Source of the DNA: Thalassospira sp.
Lineage (GTDB): Bacteria; Pseudomonadota; Alphaproteobacteria; Rhodospirillales; Thalassospiraceae
DNA length: 24,000 nt
Assembly: GCF_040218635.1 (NCBI RefSeq)
Contig: NZ_JAVJRB010000004.1
Coordinates: 67,716 to 91,715, forward strand
Reading direction: 5' to 3'
The notes beneath the pieces were generated by a model. The model searched no databases. It worked only from the letters and a program-made list of their open reading frames with translations, and was not told the origin of the DNA. Positions within the stretch are counted from its first letter, which is position 1. Each line of letters opens with the position of its first letter. The position numbers and the translations under genes are program-made. This document shows positions 3,544 to 12,723 of the stretch, piece by piece.

Positions 3544-4332
3544 GTGGAACCTGACATTCCAGATCATTTTCCAGTTCCGATTGGCGCAATGTCCAAAGAA
3601 CCTTTTAGCATCTCTGCCGCCCTTTCACGGATTTCACGTTCCGATGACCTTGATGGTGATCAGGTTCTTGAAGTGGGCGAAGGCATGGAAGTTGAAAGCA
3701 CATCCAACGGCGCACTGGTGCCCAAACGGGTGCGTGATCCCGATGCCACACGCCAACGGATCCTTGATGCCGCCTTTGGCGAAATTCGCCGGGCCGGGTT
3801 TGGCGGGGCGTCGATCAATAATATCCTTGATCATAGCGGTGTGACCAAGGGCGCGCTGTATCATCACTTTGCCGGTAAGGCCAAGCTGGTCAATGCCGTG
3901 ATCGAGGATTGCCTGCCGGGCTATGTCGATGAAGTTTGGCTTGATGAACTTGAAGGTGTCGATGATATCCTGCCGGTCATGATGGGGCAGGTCGACCGGC
4001 TTGGCAGCGATGACGCGCCGACCTTGCTTGAAGGCGGCTGTCCGTTGGCACGGTTGGCATCGGGGGCGGGGGAGCTTGATGAGAACCTTCGCAAACGCAT
4101 CGATGGTGTCTATCGCTATTGGCGGCGCAGTCTGGCATCGCACATTGGCAAGGCGCAGTTTAACAAGACGGTGCGCACTGATGTTGAACCTTCTGCCGTG
4201 GCAGAATTCCTGATTGCAGCCTTGCACGGGTTCCTGACCCGTCCACCGGCCTTGCGCAATCTGGAAACCCAGGATGCGTTTGCCCGTGAATTTGCCCGCT
4301 ATCTGAACGGACTTCGCCCGGGCGGCGGGTGA
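3544..4332 (+). CDS. TetR/AcrR family transcriptional regulator (start uncertain)
   Basis: It has a TetR HTH block (RQRILDAAFGEIRRAGFGGASINNILDHSGVTKGALYHHFAGKAKL). The track start is a GTG at 3544. In-frame ATGs at 3589 and 3685 would give a more typical TetR length. Confidence 0.8.
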   Translation: MEPDIPDHFPVPIGAMSKEPFSISAALSRISRSDDLDGDQVLEVGEGMEVESTSNGALVPKRVRDPDATRQRILDAAFGEIRRAGFGGASINNILDHSGVTKGALYHHFAGKAKLVNAVIEDCLPGYVDEVWLDELEGVDDILPVMMGQVDRLGSDDAPTLLEGGCPLARLASGAGELDENLRKRIDGVYRYWRRSLASHIGKAQFNKTVRTDVEPSAVAEFLIAALHGFLTRPPALRNLETQDAFAREFARYLNGLRPGGG

Positions 4333-4483: not shown

Positions 4484-5407
4484 ATGCGTTCTCTTATCCT
4501 TTCTGCTGTTGCCGCAGCAGCGTTTGTTTTTGCCGGTACGGCTGCGCAGGCGGAACGTCTGACCGACAAGCCGCTGGTGGATGCCAACTGGGTAGAAGCC
4601 AATCTTGGCAATCCGTCACTGGTTGTTGTCGATATCCGTTCGATGACCAAAGAAGGAAGCCCCTATGATGCCGGTCACATTGCCGGTTCGGTTTATGCGC
4701 CATATGGCACATTCGGCTGGCGGGCAAAGGTCGACAATGTTGTCGGCATGCTGCCGCCGGTTGATGTGATTTCCAAACGCATCGGATCGCTTGGCATTGA
4801 TAATGACAAACAGGTCGTTGTTGTGCCCGCAGGTCAGAACAGTTCGGACTTTGGGGCGGCAACCCGCGTTTATTGGACCTTCAAGGTTCTGGGCCACGAT
4901 GCGGTAACCATCCTTGATGGGGGTCAGCGCGCATGGCTTGCCGCAGGCAAAGACGTTTCAAAAGACTCGGTCGCGCCAGATGCAGTTGCCTTTAACGCCA
5001 GTTTCCGCCCGGAACTTCTGGCGTCTGCCGATGATGTCGCCAAGGCGCAAGCCAATGGTGTCGCGCTGATTGATGCCCGTCCGGTATCGCAGTTCAAAGG
5101 CGAAACCAAAAGCGGTGTTGTTGCCCGTGCGGGTGCCGTTCCGGGGGCAAAAAACATCGCCCAGTCCGAGTTTTATAACGATCAGAACGGTGCCTTTGTT
5201 GCATCGGATGTGATTGCAGGTCTGGTTGCGGATGCCGGTGTTGCCAAAGACGCCAAAGAAATCACCTATTGCAATACCGGTCACTGGGCATCGGTTGCAT
5301 GGTTTGGTTTGTCCGAAGTCATGGGCAACAAGAACACTGCAATGTATGATGGCTCCTTGACCGAATGGGCTGCTGATCCAAGCCGCGAAATGGTTATTCC
5401 GGAATAA
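4484..5407 (+). CDS. Periplasmic tandem-rhodanese sulfurtransferase (thiosulfate/3-mercaptopyruvate sulfurtransferase family)
   Basis: There is a Sec-type signal peptide (MRSLILSAVAAAAFVFAGTAAQA/ER), two rhodanese-like halves, and the active-site loop YCNTGHWAS in the C-terminal half. I prefer the ATG at 4484 over 4469 because a GGAGA lies 8 nt upstream of it. Confidence 0.85.
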   Translation: MRSLILSAVAAAAFVFAGTAAQAERLTDKPLVDANWVEANLGNPSLVVVDIRSMTKEGSPYDAGHIAGSVYAPYGTFGWRAKVDNVVGMLPPVDVISKRIGSLGIDNDKQVVVVPAGQNSSDFGAATRVYWTFKVLGHDAVTILDGGQRAWLAAGKDVSKDSVAPDAVAFNASFRPELLASADDVAKAQANGVALIDARPVSQFKGETKSGVVARAGAVPGAKNIAQSEFYNDQNGAFVASDVIAGLVADAGVAKDAKEITYCNTGHWASVAWFGLSEVMGNKNTAMYDGSLTEWAADPSREMVIPE

Positions 5408-5520: not shown

Positions 5521-6732
5521 ATGTCAGAAACGACCTTAAAAGCGCGCCCGCAGATATCGGGCTTTGAATTTGACAAGGGTCCGGCTGCGATTACGGCTGT
5601 GCTGTTTGTCATTGTCGGGATTGCAATTGCGCAGGCCGTCGATCTGCATCAGGCCGTTCTTTATGGTCTTGGCGGCATACTCGGCATTGCGCTGTATCAC
5701 GCATCATTCGGTTTTACCGGCGGTTGGCGCCGTTTCTCGGTCGAGAAGCGCGGACGCGCGATGCGGGCCCAGCTTTTAATGATCGGTGTTGCTGCCGCGG
5801 CCTTTATCCCGATGCTGGCCCTTGGAAGCCCGCTTGGCAATCCGATTGTCGGGGCGGTGGCACCGGTCGGGACATCGGTTCTGATCGGGGCGTTTTTGTT
5901 CGGGCTTGGCATGCAGCTTGGCGGTGGATGCGGGTCGGGAACCCTGTTCACGGTTGGCGGTGGCAGTGCCCGCATGTTGTTAACCCTTGTCTTCTTTATT
6001 ATTGGTGCGGTGATCGGGACGGCGCATTTGCCGATGTGGCTTGAGCTTCCGGCACTCCCGCCAATGAGCCTTGGCCGTGAATTTGGCATGACCGGTGGTC
6101 TTGTCGTTACCTTTGGCGGCTTGGCCCTGATCGCGCTTATTACGGTGCTGATTGAAAAGCGCGCGCATGGCACCCTTGAAGTCACCCCGACCGCACCACG
6201 CGCCGGGATTGCGCGGTTGTTTCATGGCCCCTGGCCGTTGGTCTGGACCGGGCTTTTGTTGGCCGGGCTGAATGTTGCGACGCTTTTGATTGCCGGTCAC
6301 CCATGGTCGATCACGTTCGGGTTTGGCCTTTGGGGGGCGAAAATCGCGCAAGTGATCGGTATTTCCGTTGAAACATGGGAATTCTGGAACTGGCCCGGAC
6401 CGGCACAGGCGCTGGTAAATTCGGTTCTGGAAGATAATACGTCGGTGATGAATTTCGGCATTGTGATTGGCGCTGCGTTTGCGGCTGCCCTTGCCGGGAA
6501 ATTTGCGCCGAAGGTTTCTGTGCCGGTTGCGTCACTGGTTGCGGCAGCAATTGGTGGATTGCTGATGGGCTATGGCGCGCGTTTGGCGTTTGGCTGCAAT
6601 ATCGGGGCGTTCTTTAGCGGGATTGCATCGGGCAGTGTTCATGGCTGGTTGTGGTTTGTTCTGGCCTTTGCGGGCAGTTGGCTTGGCATTGCACTGCGTC
6701 CTGTCTTTGGAATGGATGGTTTCCGGAAATGA
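5521..6732 (+). CDS. yeeE: YeeE/YedE family sulfur-compound (thiosulfate) transporter
   Basis: The 403-aa polytopic membrane protein has the duplicated YeeE/YedE signature cysteine loops (QLGGGCGSGTLF and RLAFGCNIGAFFSG). Confidence 0.85.
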   Translation: MSETTLKARPQISGFEFDKGPAAITAVLFVIVGIAIAQAVDLHQAVLYGLGGILGIALYHASFGFTGGWRRFSVEKRGRAMRAQLLMIGVAAAAFIPMLALGSPLGNPIVGAVAPVGTSVLIGAFLFGLGMQLGGGCGSGTLFTVGGGSARMLLTLVFFIIGAVIGTAHLPMWLELPALPPMSLGREFGMTGGLVVTFGGLALIALITVLIEKRAHGTLEVTPTAPRAGIARLFHGPWPLVWTGLLLAGLNVATLLIAGHPWSITFGFGLWGAKIAQVIGISVETWEFWNWPGPAQALVNSVLEDNTSVMNFGIVIGAAFAAALAGKFAPKVSVPVASLVAAAIGGLLMGYGARLAFGCNIGAFFSGIASGSVHGWLWFVLAFAGSWLGIALRPVFGMDGFRK

Positions 6733-7418
6733 GCGAGAAAAACACACTTCTGTTTGGTGCGGTCTTCCTTGCTGCGAGCGGGGCGGTTGCCCTGGACCAT
6801 TATAGCCACACAGCAAATATTCCGGCGGTTGCCAATCCGGCACCTGCTGCGTTTCCGGCGGCGGGCAGTAATCCGTGCGGCGCTAATCCATGCGCGGCAA
6901 ATCCCTGTGGTGCCAATCCTTGCGGCGCGAACCCTTGTGGCGCGAACCCGTGCGGGGCTGGATATAACCCGTGTGCCGCGTCGCCTTGTGGTGCAAATCC
7001 GTGTGCAGCATATAATCCGTGCGGTGCGGCCAATCCCTGTGCTGCGGCGAATCCTTGTGCGGCATCGCCGTGTTCAGCCGGGAATCCATGTGGGGCAGGG
7101 TATAACCCGTGCGCAGCGTCACCTTGTGGCGCAAATCCGTGTGCGGCGTATAATCCATGCGGTGCGGCCAATCCCTGTGCTGCGGCGAATCCTTGTGCGG
7201 CATCGCCCTGTTCGGCCGGGAATCCATGTGGTGCGGGATATAATCCGTGTGCCGCATCACCGTGCAGTGCCAATCCATGTGCGGCTTATAACCCGTGTGG
7301 GGCAGGCAATCCGTGTGCGCCATCTAACCCATGTGCGGCGGCGAACCCGTGTGCGGCGGCGAACCCGTGTGCGGCTGTGAACCCGTGCGGTGCCATGAAC
7401 CCCTGTTCTGCCAGTTGA
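6729..7418 (+). CDS. Secreted cysteine-rich (A/G)xNPC-repeat protein, unknown family
   Basis: The ATG at 6729 overlaps the yeeE TGA (ATGA). There is a signal-peptide-like N-terminus (MSEKNTLLFGAVFLAASGAVA/LD). The rest is GANPC/AANPC/AASPC/AAYNPC repeats with 32 Cys, every one preceded by Pro. The two 46-codon repeat copies are identical in protein but differ at 11 synonymous sites, which supports this reading frame. Confidence 0.75.
   Translation: MSEKNTLLFGAVFLAASGAVALDHYSHTANIPAVANPAPAAFPAAGSNPCGANPCAANPCGANPCGANPCGANPCGAGYNPCAASPCGANPCAAYNPCGAANPCAAANPCAASPCSAGNPCGAGYNPCAASPCGANPCAAYNPCGAANPCAAANPCAASPCSAGNPCGAGYNPCAASPCSANPCAAYNPCGAGNPCAPSNPCAAANPCAAANPCAAVNPCGAMNPCSAS
6954..7316 (+). 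repeat. 138-bp (46-codon) higher-order tandem repeat, about 2.6 copies, inside the NPC-repeat CDS
   Basis: Copies start at 6954, 7092 and 7230. Each encodes GAGYNPCAASPCGANPCAAYNPCGAANPCAAANPCAASPCSAGNPC. The third copy diverges after about 29 codons. The shorter 15-18-bp xxNPC periodicity runs from about 6860 to 7410. Confidence 0.9.
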
Positions 7419-7437
7419 AGTCTGTCTGGTCATGAGA

Positions 7438-7465
7438 TTGCGGGCGCAGAAATTTGCGTCCGCAA
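7438..7465 (+). terminator. Stem-loop after the NPC-repeat gene (weak terminator candidate)
   Basis: TTGCGGGCGCA-GAAATT-TGCGTCCGCAA forms an 11-bp stem with one G-U pair. It is followed by TAAAAA rather than a U-tract. Confidence 0.35.
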
Positions 7466-7473
7466 TAAAAAGG

Positions 7474-7532
7474 GAACAAAACGTGATTCTTTGCTTGATC
7501 TAAATTCAGGCTTCCTTATTCTTGTTTTGTTC
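7474..7532. promoter_or_regulatory. 9-bp perfect inverted repeat pair flanking the methyltransferase promoter region
   Basis: GAACAAAAC (7474-7482) and GTTTTGTTC (7524-7532) are separated by 41 bp of AT-rich DNA directly upstream of the HTH-methyltransferase start. It could be an operator pair or a leader stem. Confidence 0.25.
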
Positions 7533-7554
7533 TCTTTTCGGTTTGGGGTGCAAG

Positions 7555-8838
7555 ATGGAACGCAGTTTTCATTCGCTTCGCACAGCAAACGGCTGGTCAG
7601 TGGGTGACGCAGCTGCATGGTTTGGTGTATCAATACAGAAAGTCGAGCAGTGGGATGCAGGTAACGGCAAACCTGACGAGAGATATCTGCAAGACCTTGA
7701 AGATACCTTGATATACAAAAAGAATTTCAACCGGGGCCATCCGATGAGCGACTTTACCTTTATTGACCTGTTTGCGGGAATCGGCGGTGTCCGGCGGGGG
7801 TTTGAAGCGGCTGGTGGAAAATGCGTCTTTACCAGCGAATGGGATTTGTACGCGCAAAAAACGTACCGGGAAAACTTTCCGGACGACGACCACGAGATCG
7901 CAGGCGACATAACCCGGATAAAGGCAGAAGACATTCCCGCCCATGATGTTCTTCTTGCCGGGTTCCCGTGTCAGCCGTTCTCGATTGCCGGTGTGTCCAA
8001 GAAGAATGCGCTTGGGCGCGCACACGGTTTTATGGACAAAGCCCAGGGAACCCTGTTCTTCGATGTGCTGCGTATTCTCAAGCATCACAAGCCTGCGGCC
8101 TTTATGCTTGAAAATGTCAAAAACCTTAGAAGTCATAACAAGGGCGACACATTCAAGACCATCTTGGGCGCTCTGCGTGATGAGCTTGGCTATCATGTCC
8201 AGGCAAGGGTTATCGACGGAAAAGGTTACGTTCCGCAGCACCGTGAGCGTATTTTTATTGTAGGCTTTCGAGAGGATGTGGGCTTCGACTTTGAGGCTTG
8301 TGCGTTTCCGGATGCGACTTCGGGGCCGGTTATCAGCACTATTCTTCATGCCCCGCACGAGGAACCGGAAGATCAGTTCACGTTGCCACCGGAAGATGCT
8401 CTGTCAAATGTCGCGAGCGTTGTAAATCCGAAGTACACTTTATCGGACAAGCTCTGGAAGTACCTGTTCGATTATGCCGCAAAGCACAAGGCAAAGGGCA
8501 ACGGGTTCGGGTTTGGTCTTTGTGGCCCGAATGACAAGGCCAGAACGCTTTCTGCGCGCTACTACAAAGATGGAAGTGAAATTCTGATTGATCAGGGTGA
8601 AGGCAGGAACCCGCGCCGATTGACGCCGCGTGAATGTGCTCGTCTGATGGGGTTTGATGATGACAACTTTACAATGAAAATTCCCGTTTCTGATACTCGC
8701 GCATACAAACAGTTCGGAAATTCTGTTGTTGTGCCGGTGATCAAGGAGATTGCCCGCCAGATGAAGCCTTATGTTCTAAAGAGCCTGGAATCAGAGGGGC
8801 AGGTTATTCCAGGCGAAGAGACGGTCGCAGCAGAGTGA
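7555..8838 (+). CDS. dcm: DNA (cytosine-5)-methyltransferase with N-terminal HTH regulatory domain
   Basis: All canonical C5-MTase motifs are present: I FIDLFAGIGG, IV GFPCQPFS, VI MLENVKNL, VIII QHRERIFIVG, IX RRLTPRECARLMGF, X KQFGNSVVVPV. About 60 aa of XRE-like HTH (WSVGDAAAWFGVSIQKVEQWDAGNGKP) precede motif I. I prefer the ATG at 7555 over the TTG at 7522. Confidence 0.9.
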   Translation: MERSFHSLRTANGWSVGDAAAWFGVSIQKVEQWDAGNGKPDERYLQDLEDTLIYKKNFNRGHPMSDFTFIDLFAGIGGVRRGFEAAGGKCVFTSEWDLYAQKTYRENFPDDDHEIAGDITRIKAEDIPAHDVLLAGFPCQPFSIAGVSKKNALGRAHGFMDKAQGTLFFDVLRILKHHKPAAFMLENVKNLRSHNKGDTFKTILGALRDELGYHVQARVIDGKGYVPQHRERIFIVGFREDVGFDFEACAFPDATSGPVISTILHAPHEEPEDQFTLPPEDALSNVASVVNPKYTLSDKLWKYLFDYAAKHKAKGNGFGFGLCGPNDKARTLSARYYKDGSEILIDQGEGRNPRRLTPRECARLMGFDDDNFTMKIPVSDTRAYKQFGNSVVVPVIKEIARQMKPYVLKSLESEGQVIPGEETVAAE

Positions 8839-8842
8839 TTGT

Positions 8843-9295
8843 ATGACTGACATTGTATCGCCAGCAAAACGTAGCGAGATGATGTCAGGTATACGGGGCA
8901 AAAATACCAAACCTGAAATATTGGTGCGCAAGGCCTTGCACGCCAGAGGGTTTCGGTATCGTTTGCATGGAAGGCGGCTACCGGGAAAGCCGGACATCGT
9001 TCTTCCGAAATACAATGCTGTCATATTTGTCCATGGCTGTTTCTGGCACGGACATGATTGCCATTTGTTCAAGCTGCCCAGATCACGTACCGAATTCTGG
9101 CAAGAGAAGATCAAAAGCAATCGGGAGCGAGATGTTGAAATCCGCAAGTTGTTGCTGGACAACGGTTGGCGTGTAGCCGAAGTTTGGGAATGCTCTGTTA
9201 AAGGGAAATTGCGTATCGACTTGCCCGATTTGATTGTCCGGCTTGTCAACTGGCTTACCGGGGAAGAACCTGAACTGGAAGTGCGTGGGGGATAA
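8843..9295 (+). CDS. vsr: Very short patch repair (T:G mismatch) endonuclease
   Basis: The 150-aa ORF has Vsr hallmarks: RSEMMSGIRGKNTKPE, LPGKPDIVLPKYNAVIFVHGCFWHGH, EFWQEKIKSNRERD, GWRVAEVWEC. It starts 4 nt after the methyltransferase stop. Confidence 0.9.
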   Translation: MTDIVSPAKRSEMMSGIRGKNTKPEILVRKALHARGFRYRLHGRRLPGKPDIVLPKYNAVIFVHGCFWHGHDCHLFKLPRSRTEFWQEKIKSNRERDVEIRKLLLDNGWRVAEVWECSVKGKLRIDLPDLIVRLVNWLTGEEPELEVRGG

Positions 9296-10629
9296 TGTTT
9301 GAAGAAATTTCTGCGCTGATCGGTCGAATGGCGGAATGTGGCGCAAAGAGGTTCTATGCCAAGAGATTGGCTCCAAATGACAATTCGAAGAACCAGATTT
9401 ATCTGGGAGGTGACTTTTCAGCGCTTAACGTTATCCCGCATCAGGAAATTTATACAGATAGCGACGAGGTTTCGGGAAGCAAACGGGACAGGGCCAAAGC
9501 CGGAATTTTGTTTTCATGGATCGATGAAGCAGGCTTGTATGAAGCACCTAATGCTCAGTTGATTCTTTATCCGAAGTATCCCGAAGTCAGAATGTCCGGC
9601 TTTCTGAAGGGGTGCCGGAAAGCCCCGTCAAACATCCTTAAGGTCAGGGATGAAGGTCGCGTGATGTTCCTTGGTATCACCGATGCAGGCCGTGTTTTGG
9701 GCTATGCCGTTGATCAGGTGCATCCCTTGGCTAGAGAACTCGCATCTCACCCGGAAATCTCGGAGATCGGAGTTTTCCTGGAGATCCCGTCTCGCCCCGG
9801 CGCGGGAAGTTCCCGTACCCAGTTGCTGCGAAAGTTGAAGGAAATACACAGAAAGCAATGGATTCCGTCGCAGAAACTGGGGGCGGATGGAGAAGTTCAT
9901 TCTTATGTCGCGCGGAATGGTGGTGGCTATACTCTTGAAGCAGAATTGGGGATTGCTCCGAACGGGTATGCCGAACCCGATTATCTGGGTTGGGAGATCA
10001 AGCAATTCGGAGTGCGTGATTTTAGCAGATACCTTCCAAAGGGCCCTGTTACTCTTATGACTCCCGAGCCGTCTGGAGGAATTTACAAAGACCTCGGTGT
10101 GACTGCATTCCTGCGTTCTTATGGATACAAGGATAAAAACGGTGTTCCGGACAGGCTGAATTTCGGGGGGATATATTCTTGTGATAAACCGCCTCACAAG
10201 GATACGGGACTGCGCCTGGGGTTAATCGGGTATGATGTGGCCACCGAAAAAATAACAGACATTGAAGGTGGACTGGCTTTGTTTTCAAAGGGTGATGAAA
10301 TTGCCGCTCTCTGGAAGTTTGCTTCAATAATGGATCACTGGAACAGAAAGCACGCGCAAGCAGCTTATGTGCCTTCGATTTTCCGTCAGGGGCCACCGGC
10401 TTATGCTTACGGGGCAAAAATTCTGTTATGTGAGAAAACCGACTTTAACCTGTTTCTGAATGCGATTGCTTCCGGGGCGATATATTATGATCCGGCTATA
10501 AAAATGGAACAGATGTCGTCCTTGAGCCCGAAGATAAAACGAAGAAGTCAGTTTCGTGTGAAGCATCAGAGTCTGGCTGCGCTTTATCAGAACGCGGAAG
10601 AGGTCGATCTGGAAAAGTTCGAAGACTGA
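9295..10629 (+). CDS. Putative restriction endonuclease: EcoRII-N-like N-terminal domain fused to an MvaI/BcnI (MutH-like) PD-ExK nuclease domain
   Basis: Its start overlaps the vsr stop (TAATG). The N-terminal FYAKRLAPNDNSKNQIYLGG resembles the EcoRII effector-domain block YIKRLSANDTGATGGHQVGLYIP. The C-terminal half has GGGYTLEAELGI..N..AEPDYLGWEIKQ......VTLMTPEPSG and KIKRRSQFRVKHQSLAALY. These match my recollection of MvaI (GNTGIGKTFEDLL..PDF..IEIKT..LTLFTKSP; HGTAFRI...LLEY). The match is from memory and has not been aligned. Confidence 0.55.
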   Translation: MFEEISALIGRMAECGAKRFYAKRLAPNDNSKNQIYLGGDFSALNVIPHQEIYTDSDEVSGSKRDRAKAGILFSWIDEAGLYEAPNAQLILYPKYPEVRMSGFLKGCRKAPSNILKVRDEGRVMFLGITDAGRVLGYAVDQVHPLARELASHPEISEIGVFLEIPSRPGAGSSRTQLLRKLKEIHRKQWIPSQKLGADGEVHSYVARNGGGYTLEAELGIAPNGYAEPDYLGWEIKQFGVRDFSRYLPKGPVTLMTPEPSGGIYKDLGVTAFLRSYGYKDKNGVPDRLNFGGIYSCDKPPHKDTGLRLGLIGYDVATEKITDIEGGLALFSKGDEIAALWKFASIMDHWNRKHAQAAYVPSIFRQGPPAYAYGAKILLCEKTDFNLFLNAIASGAIYYDPAIKMEQMSSLSPKIKRRSQFRVKHQSLAALYQNAEEVDLEKFED

Positions 10630-10929
10630 GGCGGTTTTTCCGGCTCGACGCGCAATTGTGCGGGGCCTGTGTGCGTAAAACGCGGGGCTGTAACAAATAA
10701 CCCGTTTGACAAGCCGAATAAACTCTGCGCATTGTGTAGTTGATATTTGATCGCTCCAGAAGCGTAGACGGGATGCAAGTCCTTCCCTGTTGAGTGATTG
10801 ACGTAAGAACGCAATGAAGTATCCAGCTACGCGGGTGCTTCCAGAACTGCAAGGCGCAGACCTGATTACTAAAATTCACCGGGCGATAGCCCAGCTGTCT
10901 GCAGCCTCTAATTTACGAGTTACTCTTAT

Positions 10930-12723
10930 TTGACCCAGTTTTCCGAACTCGGCCTGGCCGAGCCGGTCCTTCGCGCACTAGCGCAAGAAGGATATGATGC
11001 GCCCACCCCTATTCAGGCGCAATCCATCCCGTCCCTGCTCCAAGGTAAGGACCTGCTTGGTATCGCTCAGACCGGTACCGGTAAGACGGCAGCATTCGCG
11101 TTGCCGATCCTAGATCGCCTCTCCAAAACCGAAGGTCGTACACCCAAGGGTGCCTGCCGTGTGCTGGTACTTGCACCGACGCGCGAACTTGCTGCGCAGA
11201 TCGGTGAAAGTTTCCGTGCCTATGGCCGCTTCCTGAATGTCCGCGTTGCCGTGGTCGTTGGTGGTGTTGCCCCGGGTCCCCAGATCAAAGCGATTAATCC
11301 AGGTGTCGAGGTGCTTGTCGCCACCCCTGGTCGTTTGCTTGATCATGTTGATAGTGGCAAGCTGAGCCTTAAGCATGTTGACGTCGTGGTTCTTGATGAA
11401 GCCGACCATATGCTTGACCTTGGCTTCCTGCCGCCAATCAAACGCATCATCAAAATGCTTCCGCGTAACCGTCAGAACCTGTTCTTCTCGGCAACCATGC
11501 CGGGGCAGATCGGTCAGCTGGCTGGTGATATGCTTTCTGATCCGGTCAAGGTGTCGGTAACCCCGGTTTCCACCACTCAGGAACGTGTCGAGCAGTCGGT
11601 TTATCTGATCGAGCGGACCCGCAAGCGTCAGCTTTTGGCTGAACTTCTTGATAATCCGGTTTTCAAACGCACCTTGGTCTTTACCCGGACCAAGCGTGGT
11701 GCCGATCGTGTTGCCCGTCATCTTGAGGCAAACAAGATCAGTGCAGCAGCCATTCACGGCAATAAAAGTCAGAACCAGCGCGAGCGCGCTCTGAACGCCT
11801 TTAAGGACGGTCAGATCGGTGTGCTTGTTGCAACCGATATCGCAGCACGCGGTATTGATGTTGATGCTGTGACTCACGTCGTGAATTTCGAACTTCCCAA
11901 CGTCCCGGAAAGCTATGTCCACCGTATCGGCCGTACGGCCCGTGGCGGTGCCAGCGGTTGCGCAATTGCATTCTGTGATGCCGAAGAACGTGGTTTGCTG
12001 CGCGATATCGAAAGAACAACCCGTCAGACGATCCCGGTAATTGATCGTCGCGATGCCAAGCTTGCTGCTGAGCAGGAAGCGCTGTCGGACGAGCCACGCG
12101 AAACCAACCGTGGACGTCGTTCCAGTGGTGGTCAGCCGCGCGGCAACGGTGGTCGCAACAATGGTGGCAATAATAATGGTCGTCGTGGTGGCGAAGGCAA
12201 CCGCAGCGCATCTGCTGGTCGGAATGACCGGGATGGCCGTGCTGCTGGTGGTCCGCGTCGCCCGGATGATGCCCGCAAACCTGCGGTGCGTCGTGACGTC
12301 GAAGTCAATGCCCGTTCGACTGAAAAGGCCGAGGTGAATCCGGCCCTGGAAAAATCGAAAAGCCGTTTTAAAGGCGGGATCAAATCCAAGCCGGAAAATG
12401 GTCGTGGCACCGGTGCCGGTAACGGCGCGGGTCAAGCAGATGGTCGCAAGCGCCCGACGAAACGTGTGGATTCCAATGGAAACCGCCGCGACGGTGTGCA
12501 AGGTGACAATTCAATTTCTTCCGGTCTTTCCTTTATGGGAAGCACCGAGGAACGCCGCGCGAATGGCAACGGGGGCAATGCCGCCCGGACCGCCAGACCG
12601 CAAGGCAAGCGCGGCGGTGCGAACCGCAATCGCAATCAACGTGGTCCACAACCTGGCGGGCAGCCGGGTGGGGCGGGCCGCGATACATCTTCCGGTAATC
12701 AGAGAAAGCGTGACCACGCCTGA
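10930..12723 (+). CDS. rhlE: DEAD-box ATP-dependent RNA helicase (RhlE-like) with a long Arg/Gly/Asn-rich C-terminal tail
   Basis: It has a Q-motif (GYDAPTPIQ), motif I AQTGTGKT, PTRELA, VLDEADHM, SAT, and HRIGRTARGG. About 200 aa of RG/RGG/NGG low-complexity tail follow. The only in-frame start after the upstream stop is the TTG at 10930. Confidence 0.9.
   Translation: MTQFSELGLAEPVLRALAQEGYDAPTPIQAQSIPSLLQGKDLLGIAQTGTGKTAAFALPILDRLSKTEGRTPKGACRVLVLAPTRELAAQIGESFRAYGRFLNVRVAVVVGGVAPGPQIKAINPGVEVLVATPGRLLDHVDSGKLSLKHVDVVVLDEADHMLDLGFLPPIKRIIKMLPRNRQNLFFSATMPGQIGQLAGDMLSDPVKVSVTPVSTTQERVEQSVYLIERTRKRQLLAELLDNPVFKRTLVFTRTKRGADRVARHLEANKISAAAIHGNKSQNQRERALNAFKDGQIGVLVATDIAARGIDVDAVTHVVNFELPNVPESYVHRIGRTARGGASGCAIAFCDAEERGLLRDIERTTRQTIPVIDRRDAKLAAEQEALSDEPRETNRGRRSSGGQPRGNGGRNNGGNNNGRRGGEGNRSASAGRNDRDGRAAGGPRRPDDARKPAVRRDVEVNARSTEKAEVNPALEKSKSRFKGGIKSKPENGRGTGAGNGAGQADGRKRPTKRVDSNGNRRDGVQGDNSISSGLSFMGSTEERRANGNGGNAARTARPQGKRGGANRNRNQRGPQPGGQPGGAGRDTSSGNQRKRDHA

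What the first reader, a model, noticed from the sequence alone, without database searches (positions are those of the whole stretch)
6729..7418. Unrecognised secreted protein made of (A/G)xNPC repeats with 32 Pro-Cys dipeptides, translationally coupled to YeeE
The sequence shows an ORF whose ATG overlaps the yeeE stop (ATGA at 6729-6732). It encodes a signal-peptide-like N-terminus (MSEKNTLLFGAVFLAASGAVA/LDHYSH). About 190 residues follow, composed almost only of A, G, N, P, C, S and Y. They are arranged as GANPC, AANPC, AASPC, AAYNPC and SAGNPC units. By my count there are 32 cysteines, about 14% of residues, each directly preceded by proline and spaced 5-7 residues apart. I do not recognise this as any named family. 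It is not a metallothionein pattern, a sulfur-globule protein, or a classical A(D/N)LxG pentapeptide repeat, although ANPCG loosely echoes the last. Its position immediately after and coupled to a YeeE/YedE transporter, downstream of a periplasmic rhodanese, is where a thiol-bearing sulfur-relay partner (YeeD/TusA) normally sits. One inference is that it is a periplasmic poly-thiol acceptor or carrier for sulfane sulfur (persulfide/polysulfide). Another is that it is a soft-metal or selenium sponge working with the rhodanese and YeeE.
Basis: partly seen in the sequence, partly recalled or inferred. Interest (0 to 1): 0.85.

Follow-up and report, generated by a model that had tools for sequence, protein, structure and literature searches.

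The report
Poly Pro-Cys protein coupled to YeeE
A real, conserved gene in the marine bacterium Thalassospira encodes an exported, disordered protein carrying 32 Pro-Cys thiols; it is a greatly expanded member of an undescribed family of small proteins always made together with a rhodanese-linked YeeE sulfur transporter, and most likely acts as a thiol arm that hands sulfur to that transporter.

Summary
ORF 6729-7418 (+) encodes 229 aa with 32 Cys, all in Pro-Cys (27 NPC, 5 SPC), spaced 5-7 residues. Its ATG overlaps the yeeE stop (ATGA).

It is a real gene:
- It is intact in 23 Thalassospira loci, and it is the only frame open in all of them.
- The N-terminus is under purifying selection.
- Two 46-codon repeat units differ at 11 bases, all synonymous.

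It matches no Pfam, NCBIfam or PDB entry, and motif searches of the literature found nothing.

It is not an orphan. A profile of its N-terminus ([KR]NTxLFGA...AxA-xDH) finds about 60 small proteins (49-137 aa, usually 2 Cys, 161 of 165 Cys in Pro-Cys) in Alpha- and one Betaproteobacteria. In all 13 contexts examined outside Thalassospira, the gene follows a YeeE-type transporter, usually with overlapping stop and start. In the 12 with readable downstream sequence it precedes DUF6969. A rhodanese lies nearby in all 10 that could be checked. Fifty YeeE loci without a rhodanese lack it.

Thalassospira expanded the tail to 14-34 Pro-Cys units and has no DUF6969 at the locus. Similar NPC repeats also flank many periplasmic redox domains.

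Function is inferred, not shown. The best reading is a periplasmic thiol carrier arm for sulfane sulfur. Metal binding and selenium handling remain open.

The parts
3589..4332 (+). TetR-family regulator, first gene of the conserved four-gene block. The ORF is open from GTG 3544; gene callers use the 247-aa form.
   Evidence: Pfam TetR_N and TetR_C_13. The 247-aa gene call comes from the near-identical contig L081. It is syntenic in all Thalassospira loci.
4484..5407 (+). Two-domain rhodanese with a signal-peptide-like N-terminus (MRSLILSAVAAAAFVFAGTAAQA/ERL), so predicted periplasmic.
   Evidence: Pfam Rhodanese, two stretches. NCBIfam gives only sub-threshold hits to 3-mercaptopyruvate sulfurtransferase and ExtH. 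A rhodanese lies next to yeeE in every locus that carries the Pro-Cys partner and could be checked.
5521..6732 (+). YeeE/YedE-family membrane transporter (Sulf_transp), 403 aa, with only two Cys (GGGCGSG and FGCNIG motifs).
   Evidence: Pfam PF04143, E=3e-74. It scores below the curated NCBIfam cut-offs for YedE/FdhT and TsuA. It is 98% identical to Thalassospira lucentensis Mv1.
6729..6732 (+). ATGA overlap: start codon of the Pro-Cys gene and stop codon of yeeE. This is a translational-coupling junction with no well-spaced Shine-Dalgarno sequence.
   Evidence: Sequence. The same overlap, or a gap of at most 12 nt, is seen in Thalassospira, Aliihoeflea/Mesorhizobium, Pseudothauera, Daeguia and metagenome loci.
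6729..7418 (+). Gene for the 229-aa poly-(Pro-Cys) protein (the finding).
   Evidence: It is the only frame open in all 23 orthologues. A gene caller calls the 240-aa orthologue in the near-identical contig L081. There is no Pfam, NCBIfam or PDB match. AlphaFold2 gives pLDDT 36, that is, predicted disordered.
6729..6791 (+). Conserved N-terminal targeting segment (residues 1-21, MSEKNTLLFGAVFLAASGAVA). It is either a Sec signal peptide or a single-pass anchor. It is the family signature [KR]-N-T-x-L-F-G-A...A-x-A.
   Evidence: Alignments A1 and A2: N5, G10, A16, A19, D23 and H24 are invariant; T6, L8, F9, A11, A21 and H27 are at least 90% conserved. Pairwise codon differences among 23 orthologues are 2633 synonymous against 745 non-synonymous. 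The motif is present in 82 of 85 family members.
6792..6809 (+). L-D-H-Y-S-H (residues 22-27), directly after the A-x-A site. If the protein is cleaved there, the mature N-terminus is X-D-H, with His at position 3.
   Evidence: x-D-H follows A-x-A in about 75-78 of 85 members; the second His is not universal. Cleavage itself is not shown.
6870..7406 (+). Pro-Cys repeat region (residues 48-226): 32 units of 5-7 residues, (A/G/S)(A/G)(x)(N/S)PC.
   Evidence: Twelve different 9-mers encode NPC. The unit number varies from 14 to 34 among Thalassospira species while the frame is kept.
6954..7367 (+). Three 46-codon higher-order repeat units (6954-7091, 7092-7229, 7230-7367).
   Evidence: Tandem Repeats Finder: period 138, 2.6-2.9 copies, 82-85% matches. 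Units 1 and 2 are identical in protein and differ at 11 nt, all synonymous.
7419..10641 (+). Strain-specific insertion directly downstream, not part of the system. It carries a Dcm C5-methyltransferase (7522-8838), Vsr (8843-9295) and an MvaI/BcnI-type restriction endonuclease (9295-10629).
   Evidence: Pfam. In L002, L009 and L038, homology to the window resumes at about 10642-10650, roughly 40-50 nt after the stop of the Pro-Cys gene. L001 and L081 have an HNH_2 gene at the same position. This shows the Pro-Cys ORF is complete and not truncated.

Best explanation
**What it is**
The ORF is a real gene from a Thalassospira genome. It encodes an exported, intrinsically disordered protein whose only reactive groups are 32 cysteine thiols, each in a Pro-Cys dipeptide.

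It is a lineage-specific expansion of an undescribed family of small proteins. Members have a conserved N-terminal hydrophobic segment ending A-x-A-x-D-H. A low-complexity Ala/Pro tail follows with 1-9 Pro-Cys motifs, or 14-34 in Thalassospira. These proteins are co-translated with a rhodanese-associated YeeE-type transporter.

**Proposed mechanism (inferred, not shown)**
1. The N-terminal segment takes the tail across the inner membrane. It then either stays as an N-in anchor beside YeeE or is cleaved after A-x-A.
2. In the periplasm the flexible Pro-Cys tail acts as a thiol carrier arm, functionally like the C-terminal Cys arm of SoxY.
3. It accepts sulfane sulfur as a persulfide or polysulfide, either from the persulfidated periplasmic rhodanese (thiosulfate -> rhodanese-SSH + sulfite) or directly from polysulfide.
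4. It presents that sulfur at the mouth of the YeeE channel for import.
5. Outside Thalassospira a cytoplasmic DUF6969 protein, with an invariant Cys and a His cluster, is the likely receiver.

The Thalassospira expansion would multiply the capacity or reach of the arm.

**Shown:** gene reality, selection, family, operon linkage, predicted disorder.
**Inferred:** export and topology, the thiol state of the Cys, the sulfur chemistry.
For: **Real gene under selection**
- The frame is intact in 23 of 23 loci, and every other frame has stops in 17-23 of them.
- The first 29 codons show 2633 synonymous against 745 non-synonymous pairwise codon differences.
- Repeat units 1 and 2 differ by 11 synonymous and 0 non-synonymous changes.
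- Twelve different 9-mers encode NPC.
- A gene caller calls the 240-aa orthologue in the near-identical contig L081.

**Family**
- The N-terminal profile A2 finds 55 proteins, all annotated as hypothetical, with one spurious Pfam hit (P0284) and none otherwise.
- 161 of 165 Cys outside Thalassospira, and 562 of 569 inside it, are in Pro-Cys.

**Linkage**
- The block TetR-rhodanese-YeeE-PC is conserved in all Thalassospira loci.
- L023-L028, L032, L087, L088, L089, L090, L093 and one ENA contig all show Sulf_transp -> PC protein -> DUF6969, with the PC gene start overlapping or within 12 nt of the YeeE stop. A rhodanese is adjacent in all of these except the short contigs L088 and L089; in L032 the match is weak (27% identity).
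- Fifty YeeE loci without a rhodanese have no such partner.

**Periplasmic location**
- The N-terminus is Sec-like with positive charges before the hydrophobic core.
- The same NPC repeat is fused to obligately periplasmic domains such as c-type cytochromes and cytochrome P460.

**Need for reduced periplasmic thiols**
- In Daeguia, thioredoxin, DsbD_TM and rhodanese genes lie divergent from YeeE-PC-DUF6969.

**Precedent in the literature**
- YeeE-like SoxT1A is proposed to receive sulfane sulfur from the SoxY cysteine. TsuA/YeeE needs the thiol protein TsuB/YeeD. YeeE-like proteins take up zero-valent sulfur (PMC11582611).
- NPC repeats are often attached to SoxA/TsdA-type cytochrome domains.
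Against: - There is no experimental or expression evidence of any kind.
- No tool could test persulfide chemistry.
- In an oxidising periplasm, 32 Cys would tend to form disulfides unless kept reduced, and no reductant system lies in this window.
- The substrate of this YeeE subfamily is unknown. It scores below the curated cut-offs of both TsuA and YedE/FdhT.
- NPC repeats also flank domains with no obvious sulfur role (cytochrome P460, YHS, DM13), so the repeat may have a more general function.
- The conserved X-D-H after the predicted cleavage site and the His/acidic residues in some stand-alone NPC proteins point towards metals.
- DUF6969, present in every non-Thalassospira module with readable downstream sequence, is missing from this locus.
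- Whether the N-terminus is cleaved or remains an anchor is unresolved.
Confidence: 0.42

Rival explanations
1. Periplasmic soft-metal (Cu, also Zn/Cd/Hg/Ni) binding or buffering peptide. After signal-peptide cleavage the free N-terminus X-D-H(-x-x-H) would form an amino-terminal Cu(II)/Ni(II)-type site. The Pro-Cys thiolates would bind Cu(I) or other thiophilic metals. The Thalassospira expansion would be a metal sponge.
For: - A-x-A-x-D-H is present in about 75-78 of 85 family members, which puts His at position 3 of the predicted mature protein.
- Several stand-alone NPC proteins begin with AHHE, DHHE, DSHE or MSH after their predicted cleavage sites and are rich in Asp/Glu next to NPC.
- NPC repeats are fused to YHS and DM13 domains.
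- An ECF sigma factor with NrsF lies next to the NPC-P460 protein P0024. An RND/CzcB-like pump lies near P0002.
- The resemblance of X-D-H-x-x-H to the MDHSHH N-terminus of human Ctr1 is recalled from memory, not tested.
Against: - The conserved module (rhodanese, YeeE, DUF6969) contains no recognised metal-resistance, chaperone or efflux gene.
- Most family members have only 2 Cys, and one has a single Cys. That is too few for a thiolate cluster.
- Cys spacing of 5-7 residues with intervening Pro matches no known metallothionein, CxxC or copper-storage pattern.
- The His at position 3 is Tyr or Thr in 4 members, and the second His is often absent.
- Cleavage is unproven.
Confidence: 0.2
2. 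Selenium rather than sulfur trafficking. The thiols would capture selenite as selenotrisulfides (RS-Se-SR). The rhodanese would carry perselenide, and the YedE-like transporter would import it.
For: - The best NCBIfam hit of the transporter is YedE/FdhT, a selenium-metabolism membrane protein. The rhodanese partly matches ExtH (selenite/tellurite reduction) and a rhodanese-related (seleno)protein. All of these are below the curated cut-offs.
- NPC repeats are fused to 'YHS domain-containing (seleno)protein' family members.
- YedE-like proteins are implicated in selenium transport (PMC11582611).
Against: - Every NCBIfam score is far below the curated threshold (134 bits against 350; 76 against 200).
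- No selD, selA, selB or selenoprotein gene lies in the window or in the related modules.
- The chemistry is equally compatible with sulfur, which is far more abundant.
Confidence: 0.13
3. Precursor of a modified peptide, like a bufferin or methanobactin. The conserved N-terminus would serve as leader and export signal, and the Cys-containing tail as the core. The adjacent DUF6969 would be a new Cys-modifying enzyme, with export to the periplasm after modification.
For: - The layout is a conserved N-terminus, a hypervariable Cys-bearing C-terminus and small size.
- An uncharacterised, His-rich, confidently folded enzyme-like protein is encoded immediately downstream in every non-Thalassospira case with readable downstream sequence.
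- FGE-sulfatase genes, whose family modifies Cys, lie next to NPC proteins in L033 and L085.
Against: - DUF6969 is absent from the Thalassospira locus, yet the gene is maintained and expanded there.
- No known RiPP enzyme (MNIO/DUF692, radical SAM, YcaO) is in the window or in the called genes of the related modules.
- The universal partners are a transporter and a rhodanese, not a peptidase or exporter.
- DUF6969 has no fold match to any solved enzyme.
Confidence: 0.08
4. The tail has no specific chemistry. The protein would be a small accessory subunit of YeeE whose conserved helix is the functional part. The low-complexity tail would be a tolerated, drifting spacer, or the ORF would be an artefact of a repetitive sequence.
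For: - The N-terminal segment is the only well-conserved part.
- Tail length and composition vary widely (NPC, APC or GPC units; PPPPP stretches).
- AlphaFold2 predicts disorder.
Against: - Cys is almost always kept in the Pro-Cys context across the family (723 of 734 Cys).
- Duplicated repeat units show 11 synonymous and 0 non-synonymous changes.
- The frame is preserved through many repeat-number changes.
- Only 2 of 85 listed members lack Cys altogether (P0284 and P0308), and these, like P0273, look frameshifted or chimeric.
Confidence: 0.07

Closest known systems
SoxY (sulfur carrier of the periplasmic Sox system, C-terminal GGCGG arm)
   Same: It is periplasmic. Its working group is a Cys thiol on a flexible stretch of small residues at or near the C-terminus. 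Many family members end ...PC(A/S/G)(A/G)x-COOH, for example YAPCGAI, NPCSAGAI and NPCSAS. SoxY is proposed to hand sulfane sulfur to a YeeE-like transporter (SoxT1A; PMC11582611).
   Different: There is no sequence or fold relationship: no Ig-like domain, no SoxZ partner, and no soxXAB genes nearby. The protein is predicted disordered. It has 32 Cys rather than one. It is coupled to a rhodanese rather than to SoxXA.
YeeD/TsuB and TusA (cytoplasmic thiol partners of YeeE/TsuA)
   Same: It is encoded immediately downstream of yeeE. It is a small Cys-bearing protein, so it is presumed to act as a partner of the transporter.
   Different: YeeD/TusA are folded cytoplasmic alpha/beta proteins with a CPxP active-site motif. 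This protein has a Sec-type N-terminus, a Pro-Cys (not Cys-Pro) motif, no TusA-like Pfam match, and is predicted to be on the periplasmic side. The cytoplasmic slot in the wider family is taken by DUF6969.
Bufferins and other Sec-exported Cys-containing RiPP metallophores
   Same: They are small, have a Sec signal peptide, carry Cys residues in a variable region, act in the periplasm, and have an uncharacterised enzyme-like neighbour.
   Different: No MNIO (DUF692)/DUF2063 pair is present. The neighbours are a transporter and a rhodanese. The Thalassospira locus has no candidate modifying enzyme.
Metallothioneins and copper storage proteins
   Same: Very high Cys content and low complexity.
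   Different: There are no CxC, CC or CxxC clusters. Spacing is a regular 5-7 residues with Pro before each Cys. The protein is exported. It is not helical, whereas Csp proteins are four-helix bundles. Most family members have only 2 Cys.
Pentapeptide-repeat proteins (A(D/N)LXX, PF00805)
   Same: A-N-P-C-G/A units of five residues echo the A(D/N)LXX register at the first two positions.
   Different: The central Leu/Phe is replaced by Pro. Unit length varies between 5, 6 and 7. There is no Pfam match at E<=1. AlphaFold2 gives no beta-helix.
NPC-repeat modules on periplasmic cytochromes c, cytochrome P460, YHS and DM13 proteins (unnamed, unannotated)
   Same: They have the same (A/G)(A/K)NPC repeat, the same cellular compartment, and mostly marine or environmental Proteobacteria and Cyanobacteria as hosts. 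Some lie near DUF6969 genes (L033, L085).
   Different: Those proteins carry a folded catalytic or redox domain between or after the repeats. They lack the [KR]NTxLFGA...AxAxDH N-terminus and are not coupled to yeeE. The relationship may be shared function or convergence of a low-complexity motif.

Membership tests
YeeE-coupled Pro-Cys tail proteins (family defined here; no database name) | N-terminal segment [KR]-N-T-x-L-F-G-A-[AS]...A-x-A-x-D-H | tested here: met
   The window protein has MSEKNTLLFGAVFLAASGAVALDH. The invariant and near-invariant columns are in alignments A1 and A2. The profile retrieves 55 proteins.
YeeE-coupled Pro-Cys tail proteins (family defined here; no database name) | Low-complexity tail in which essentially every Cys is in a Pro-Cys dipeptide | tested here: met
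   32 of 32 in the window. 562 of 569 in Thalassospira and 161 of 165 in other members.
YeeE-coupled Pro-Cys tail proteins (family defined here; no database name) | Gene starts at or overlapping the stop of a ~400-aa Sulf_transp (YeeE) gene, with a rhodanese gene adjacent | tested here: met
   ATGA at 6729-6732, with the rhodanese at 4484-5407. The same arrangement is seen in all related loci examined, except that rhodanese adjacency could not be checked on the short contigs L088 and L089.
YeeE-coupled Pro-Cys tail proteins (family defined here; no database name) | DUF6969 gene immediately downstream | tested here: not met
   tblastn with three DUF6969 proteins finds nothing in the window or in any Thalassospira locus, but finds it in L023-L028, L032, L033, L085 and L087-L089. 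Whether DUF6969 lies elsewhere in Thalassospira genomes could not be tested.
YeeD/TsuB - TusA sulfur carriers | TusA-like alpha/beta fold with a CPxP active-site motif; cytoplasmic | tested here: not met
   No Pfam or NCBIfam hit at E<=1. No Cys-Pro motif, only Pro-Cys. Sec-like N-terminus. AlphaFold2 predicts disorder.
SoxY | Ig-like SoxY domain ending in GGCGG, paired with SoxZ, within a sox cluster | tested here: not met
   No Pfam hit. No sox sulfur-oxidation genes in the window (the Pfam 'SoxG' hit at 8-559 is sarcosine oxidase). Only the general idea of a Cys on a flexible small-residue arm is shared.
Metallothionein | Clustered CxC, CC or CxxC motifs forming metal-thiolate clusters; intracellular | tested here: not met
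   All Cys-Cys spacings are 5-7 residues; there is no CC, CxC or CxxC. Signal-peptide-like N-terminus. No family hit.
Pentapeptide repeat (PF00805) | Tandem A(D/N)LXX units of constant length 5 forming a right-handed beta-helix | tested here: not met
   No PF00805 hit at E<=1. Units are 5, 6 and 7 residues long. No beta structure in the model, although the model has low confidence.
Bufferin / MNIO-modified RiPP precursors | Adjacent MNIO (DUF692) enzyme and DUF2063 partner | tested here: not met
   Pfam annotation of every large ORF in the window shows neither. They are also absent from the called genes of the related modules.
Amino-terminal Cu(II)/Ni(II) (ATCUN-type) site | Free N-terminus with His at position 3 | not testable with these tools
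   His24 would be residue 3 only if signal peptidase cuts after A19-V20-A21. The A-x-A-x-D-H pattern is conserved, but cleavage cannot be shown computationally here.

The most novel reading that the evidence does not exclude
The Pro-Cys tail proteins are a new, non-homologous class of periplasmic chalcogen carrier. Each is a disordered, thiol-studded 'fishing line' made together with a YeeE-type channel. It collects sulfane sulfur (or selenium) from a periplasmic rhodanese and feeds it into the transporter, with DUF6969 as a new cytoplasmic receiver. The widespread NPC repeat on periplasmic cytochromes, P460, YHS and DM13 proteins would be the same thiol module reused as a built-in substrate or electron-coupled carrier.
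Probability: 0.3. Interest if true: 0.8.

Novelty: new variant of a known kind. Interest (0 to 1): 0.68.

Why it matters
How sulfur reaches YeeE/SoxT-type transporters from the periplasm is an open question; PMC11582611 says the transfer happens 'by unknown means'.

A conserved thiol-bearing partner made together with the transporter and linked to a periplasmic rhodanese makes that step directly testable. Candidate tests are persulfide loading, Cys-to-Ser tails and pull-downs.

The work also defines three unannotated things that now have a context:
- a family of about 85 small proteins that annotation treats as hypothetical;
- DUF6969, with 2750 homologues, a confident model and no solved fold match;
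- the NPC repeat, found on hundreds of periplasmic redox proteins in marine and environmental bacteria.

If the rival reading is right, it would instead be a new kind of periplasmic metal-binding peptide.

Tried and rejected
**Searches that found nothing**
- Pfam and NCBIfam scans of the protein, no hit at E<=1.
- PDB sequence search; the only hits were meaningless low-complexity matches to FLVCR2.
- AlphaFold2 on the single sequence gave pLDDT 36 and no usable model.
- Literature string searches for NPCAA, ANPCA, KNPCA, NPCGAN, PCAANP and NPCAAN found only unrelated text.
- Literature searches for DUF6969/PF22308, for 'cysteine-rich + YeeE + small protein', and for 'Thalassospira + thiosulfate + rhodanese' found nothing.
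- An exact-sequence look-up of the window protein is not on record. A near-identical contig does carry the called gene.

**Ideas tested and rejected**
- That the ORF is a C-terminally truncated NPC-plus-domain gene cut by the restriction-modification island. The C-terminus ...NPCSA(S/Y/N) and the downstream junction are conserved in relatives without the island.
- That an alternative frame or strand is the real gene (for example 6754-7380 + or 6800-7273 -). All other frames carry stops in 17-23 of the 23 orthologues.
- That X-X-His after the signal peptide is a general feature of NPC-repeat proteins. Most domain-fused NPC proteins start the repeat directly after the signal peptide.

**Neighbourhoods of domain-fused NPC proteins**
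P0002, P0024 and P0022 have heterogeneous neighbourhoods with no universal partner.

**DUF6969**
- Foldseek against the PDB gave no match at E<=0.001.

Full report
**1. The observation**

ORF 6729-7418 (+) encodes 229 residues. ATGA at 6729-6732 is at once its start codon and the TGA stop of the upstream 403-aa gene, which is a clear Sulf_transp/YeeE-family transporter (Pfam PF04143, E=3e-74).

The product is A65 P37 C32 N30 G22 S15 Y7 plus 21 other residues. All 32 Cys follow Pro (27 NPC, 5 SPC). Successive Cys are 5, 6 or 7 residues apart.

Tandem Repeats Finder sees nested periods of 15, 18, 36 and 138 nt. The 138-nt period corresponds to three 46-codon units at 6954-7091, 7092-7229 and 7230-7367.

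The N-terminus (MSEKN / TLLFGAVFLAA / SGAVA | LDHYSH) has the n-, h- and c-region layout of a Sec signal peptide, with Ala at -3 and -1. This is read from the sequence; no signal-peptide predictor was available. Everything countable in the finding is confirmed.

**2. Is it a gene?**

The window comes from Thalassospira. Its YeeE is 98% identical to that of T. lucentensis Mv1 and 80-94% identical to those of about 20 other species or MAGs.

- In every Thalassospira locus that extends far enough, 23 including the window, an ORF with the same start (MSEKNT..., MSDKNT... in L008) follows yeeE. It carries 14-34 Pro-Cys units.
- Repeat number changes even between strains with 98% identical YeeE: 32 in the window against 34 in L001.
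- Despite this, the +1 frame is open in 23 of 23 loci. Each of the other five frames contains stops in 17-23 of them.
- Over the first 29 codons, pairwise comparisons give 2633 synonymous against 745 non-synonymous codon differences. Many columns are invariant in amino acid but use 3-4 codons.
- Within the window, NPC is written with 12 different 9-mers.
- The first two 46-codon units are identical in protein yet differ at 11 nucleotides, all synonymous.
- A gene caller calls the 240-aa orthologue on a near-identical metagenome contig (L081).

This is strong evidence for a translated gene whose repeat sequence is itself under purifying selection.

The ORF is not a truncated fragment. The Dcm/Vsr/MvaI-BcnI restriction-modification cassette at about 7419-10641 is a strain-specific insertion. 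In L002, L009 and L038, homology to the window resumes at about 10642-10650, roughly 40-50 nt after the stop of the Pro-Cys gene. L001 and L081 carry an HNH gene at the same spot.

**3. Database status**

- No Pfam or NCBIfam family matches at E<=1.
- No PDB sequence matches, apart from chance low-complexity alignments.
- AlphaFold2 on the single sequence gives pLDDT 36 with almost no secondary structure, consistent with intrinsic disorder.
- Full-text searches for the motif strings found nothing relevant.

**4. The NPC repeat elsewhere**

A word-indexed search found 690 proteins. An exhaustive phmmer scan found 296 cluster representatives at E<=1e-3. All the top hits from the word-indexed search whose sequences I read carry (A/G)(A/K)NPC repeats at the N-terminus, the C-terminus or both, flanking a folded periplasmic domain. 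The domains are:
- SoxA/TsdA-type mono-haem cytochrome c (PF21342, PF03150);
- cytochrome P460 (PF16694);
- YHS 'seleno-protein' family (PF04945);
- DM13 (PF10517);
- a small beta-rich domain without a Pfam entry.

Many 60-120-aa proteins consist of only a signal peptide and NPC repeats. So the repeat is a widespread, unannotated periplasmic module, mostly in marine and environmental Proteobacteria and Cyanobacteria. The gene neighbourhoods of three domain-fused examples share no common partner.

**5. The true family and its context**

Four short hits (P0136, P0158, P0168, P0253) match the Thalassospira protein from residue 1. They share its N-terminus, not just its repeats.

Aligning these with Thalassospira and six genome loci gives the signature [KR]-N-T-x-L-F-G-A-[AS]...A-x-A-x-D-H. 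A profile search with it returns 55 proteins of 49-112 aa. All are annotated as hypothetical, with one spurious Pfam hit (P0284) and none otherwise. The named sources are Caenispirillum, Devosia, Roseitalea and Daeguia.

Pooling everything gives 85 sequences:

| Feature | Count |
|---|---|
| N-terminal motif present | 82 of 85 |
| A-x-A before x-D-H | about 75 of 85 |
| Cys in Pro-Cys, Thalassospira | 562 of 569 |
| Cys in Pro-Cys, other members | 161 of 165 |
| Modal Cys number outside Thalassospira | 2 |

A 60-aa member in the betaproteobacterium Pseudothauera has a single Cys in a C-terminal ...YAPCGAI. Tails are NPC-, APC- or GPC-type. In Hyphomicrobiales they continue into PPPPP stretches.

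Context is very consistent. All six metagenome or genome look-ups (L087, L088, L089, L090, L093 and an ENA contig) and seven GTDB loci (L023-L028, L032) show the gene directly after a ~400-aa Sulf_transp gene. The two usually share an ATGA-type overlap. In the 12 contexts with readable downstream sequence, a DUF6969 (PF22308) gene follows directly. A rhodanese gene is adjacent in all except the short contigs L088 and L089, usually upstream on the same strand; in L032 the match is weak (27% identity). In Daeguia the rhodanese lies in a divergent operon with a thioredoxin and a DsbD_TM/CcdA-type protein.

Conversely, 50 YeeE loci from Halomonas, Pseudomonas and others at 51-60% identity have no adjacent rhodanese. 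They have no such partner and no DUF6969.

In Thalassospira the block is TetR-rhodanese-YeeE-PC protein. DUF6969 is absent from the locus and the tail is expanded.

Two further loci (L033, L085) place a small signal-peptide NPC protein, an NPC-cytochrome P460, FGE-sulfatase genes and DUF6969 together. In L033 this cluster lies 3 kb from a rhodanese-YeeE pair. This ties the general NPC module loosely to the same set of genes.

**6. DUF6969**

This family is not in the window, but it informs the pathway.
- It has 2750 homologues.
- It has no signal peptide.
- It has an invariant Cys and an invariant YYHAH...EHGHFH cluster.
- Its AlphaFold2 model is confident (pLDDT 89, pTM 0.90).
- It has no Foldseek match in the PDB, no PDB sequence match and no literature.

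It is a plausible cytoplasmic receiver or enzyme of the module, but its function is unknown.

**7. How it most likely works**

Established knowledge: YeeE/TsuA imports thiosulfate and needs the cytoplasmic thiol protein YeeD/TsuB. YeeE-like SoxT1A imports sulfane sulfur that arrives on the Cys arm of periplasmic SoxY 'by unknown means'. Related proteins take up zero-valent sulfur, and YedE-like proteins are linked to selenium (PMC11582611). Rhodaneses form a Cys-persulfide from thiosulfate; this is textbook chemistry, not tested here.

Given the invariant trio of periplasmic rhodanese, YeeE and a Pro-Cys protein made with YeeE, the best-supported model is as follows.
1. The Pro-Cys tail is exposed in the periplasm.
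2. It is either tethered by its N-terminal helix next to YeeE or released by signal peptidase.
3. It serves as a flexible thiol arm that takes sulfane sulfur from the rhodanese or from polysulfide.
4. It delivers that sulfur to the channel.

The Cys near the C-terminus on small residues in many members resembles the SoxY arm in principle. The thioredoxin/CcdA genes in Daeguia fit a need for reduced periplasmic thiols. The Thalassospira expansion would raise capacity or reach.

I put this at about 0.4. Gene reality, family membership and linkage to YeeE and rhodanese are at least 0.9.

**8. Rivals**

(a) *Metal binding (0.2).* The conserved A-x-A-x-D-H would give a mature N-terminus with His at position 3, and some stand-alone NPC proteins are His- and acid-rich. 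Against this, the module has no metal genes and most members have only 2 Cys.

(b) *Selenium instead of sulfur (0.13).* The best NCBIfam names point that way, but all scores are far below the cut-offs.

(c) *A RiPP-like precursor modified by DUF6969 (0.08).* This is weakened by the absence of DUF6969 in Thalassospira.

(d) *A chemically inert tail on a small transporter subunit (0.07).* This is contradicted by selection on the repeats and by the near-absolute Pro-Cys context.

**9. Comparison with known families**

The protein is not a member of YeeD/TusA, SoxY, metallothionein, pentapeptide-repeat or bufferin families. Defining features were tested and not met; see the membership table.

It may work like SoxY, as a periplasmic Cys carrier arm feeding a YeeE-type transporter. 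It sits in the operon where YeeD sits, but on the other side of the membrane.

**10. Verdict**

The specific biochemical role remains inferred.

I rate it a new variant of a known kind, namely thiol partners of YeeE-type sulfur transporters, carried by a protein family with no known homologues. Interest is about 0.7. A specialist in sulfur trafficking would find a conserved, unannotated, transporter-coupled poly-thiol partner surprising and immediately testable.

Noticed in passing
window 7419-10641: A restriction-modification cassette is inserted directly after the Pro-Cys gene: Dcm C5-methyltransferase 7522-8838, Vsr 8843-9295, and an MvaI/BcnI-type endonuclease 9295-10629. The site is an insertion hotspot. 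L001 and L081 carry an HNH_2 gene there, L006 carries a related Dcm-Vsr, and L002, L009 and L038 have nothing.
   Followed up: partly
L087:4930-5652, L085:3382-4110, L088:1093-1779; also L023-L028, L032, L090, L093: DUF6969 (PF22308) directly follows the Pro-Cys gene in every non-Thalassospira context with readable downstream sequence. It has 2750 homologues, an invariant Cys and a YYHAH...EHGHFH cluster. Its AlphaFold2 model has pLDDT 89 and pTM 0.90. It has no Foldseek match in the PDB and no literature. It may be a new fold or enzyme tied to YeeE-type transport.
   Followed up: partly
proteins P0001-P0257: (A/G)(A/K)NPC repeats form an unannotated module at the N- and/or C-termini of SoxA/TsdA-type cytochromes c, cytochrome P460, YHS '(seleno)proteins', DM13 proteins and a small beta domain. 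Many 60-120-aa proteins have only a signal peptide and NPC repeats. Some begin AHHE, DHHE or DSHE after the predicted cleavage site.
   Followed up: partly
L033:1-3100 and L085:1500-7000: A recurring cluster contains a small signal-peptide NPC protein, an NPC-cytochrome P460, one or two FGE-sulfatase-family genes and DUF6969. In L085 it lies next to an ECF sigma factor with an NrsF anti-sigma factor. In L033 it lies 3 kb from a rhodanese-YeeE pair that has no coupled Pro-Cys gene.
   Followed up: partly
L090:1042-3606 (Daeguia caeni): A thioredoxin, a DsbD_TM/CcdA-type membrane protein and a 434-aa rhodanese are encoded divergently from YeeE-PC protein-DUF6969. This suggests reducing power is delivered to the periplasm for this module.
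   Followed up: no
window 5521-6732: This YeeE has only two Cys (GGGCGSG and FGCNIG motifs). The paper read here says the structurally characterised TsuA has three conserved Cys. Whether a partner thiol substitutes for the missing one was not examined.
   Followed up: no
protein P0096 (Logan assembly): One Thalassospira-like copy reads MSEKNTLLFGAVFLAATGAVTLDHYTH...AKRP and then shifts into the +2 frame. This is either an assembly error in the repeat or a rare frameshifted allele.
   Followed up: no
window 10930-12723: The DEAD-box helicase has a roughly 200-residue Arg/Gly/Asn-rich low-complexity C-terminal tail. The gene is conserved downstream of the module in all Thalassospira loci that extend far enough.
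   Followed up: no
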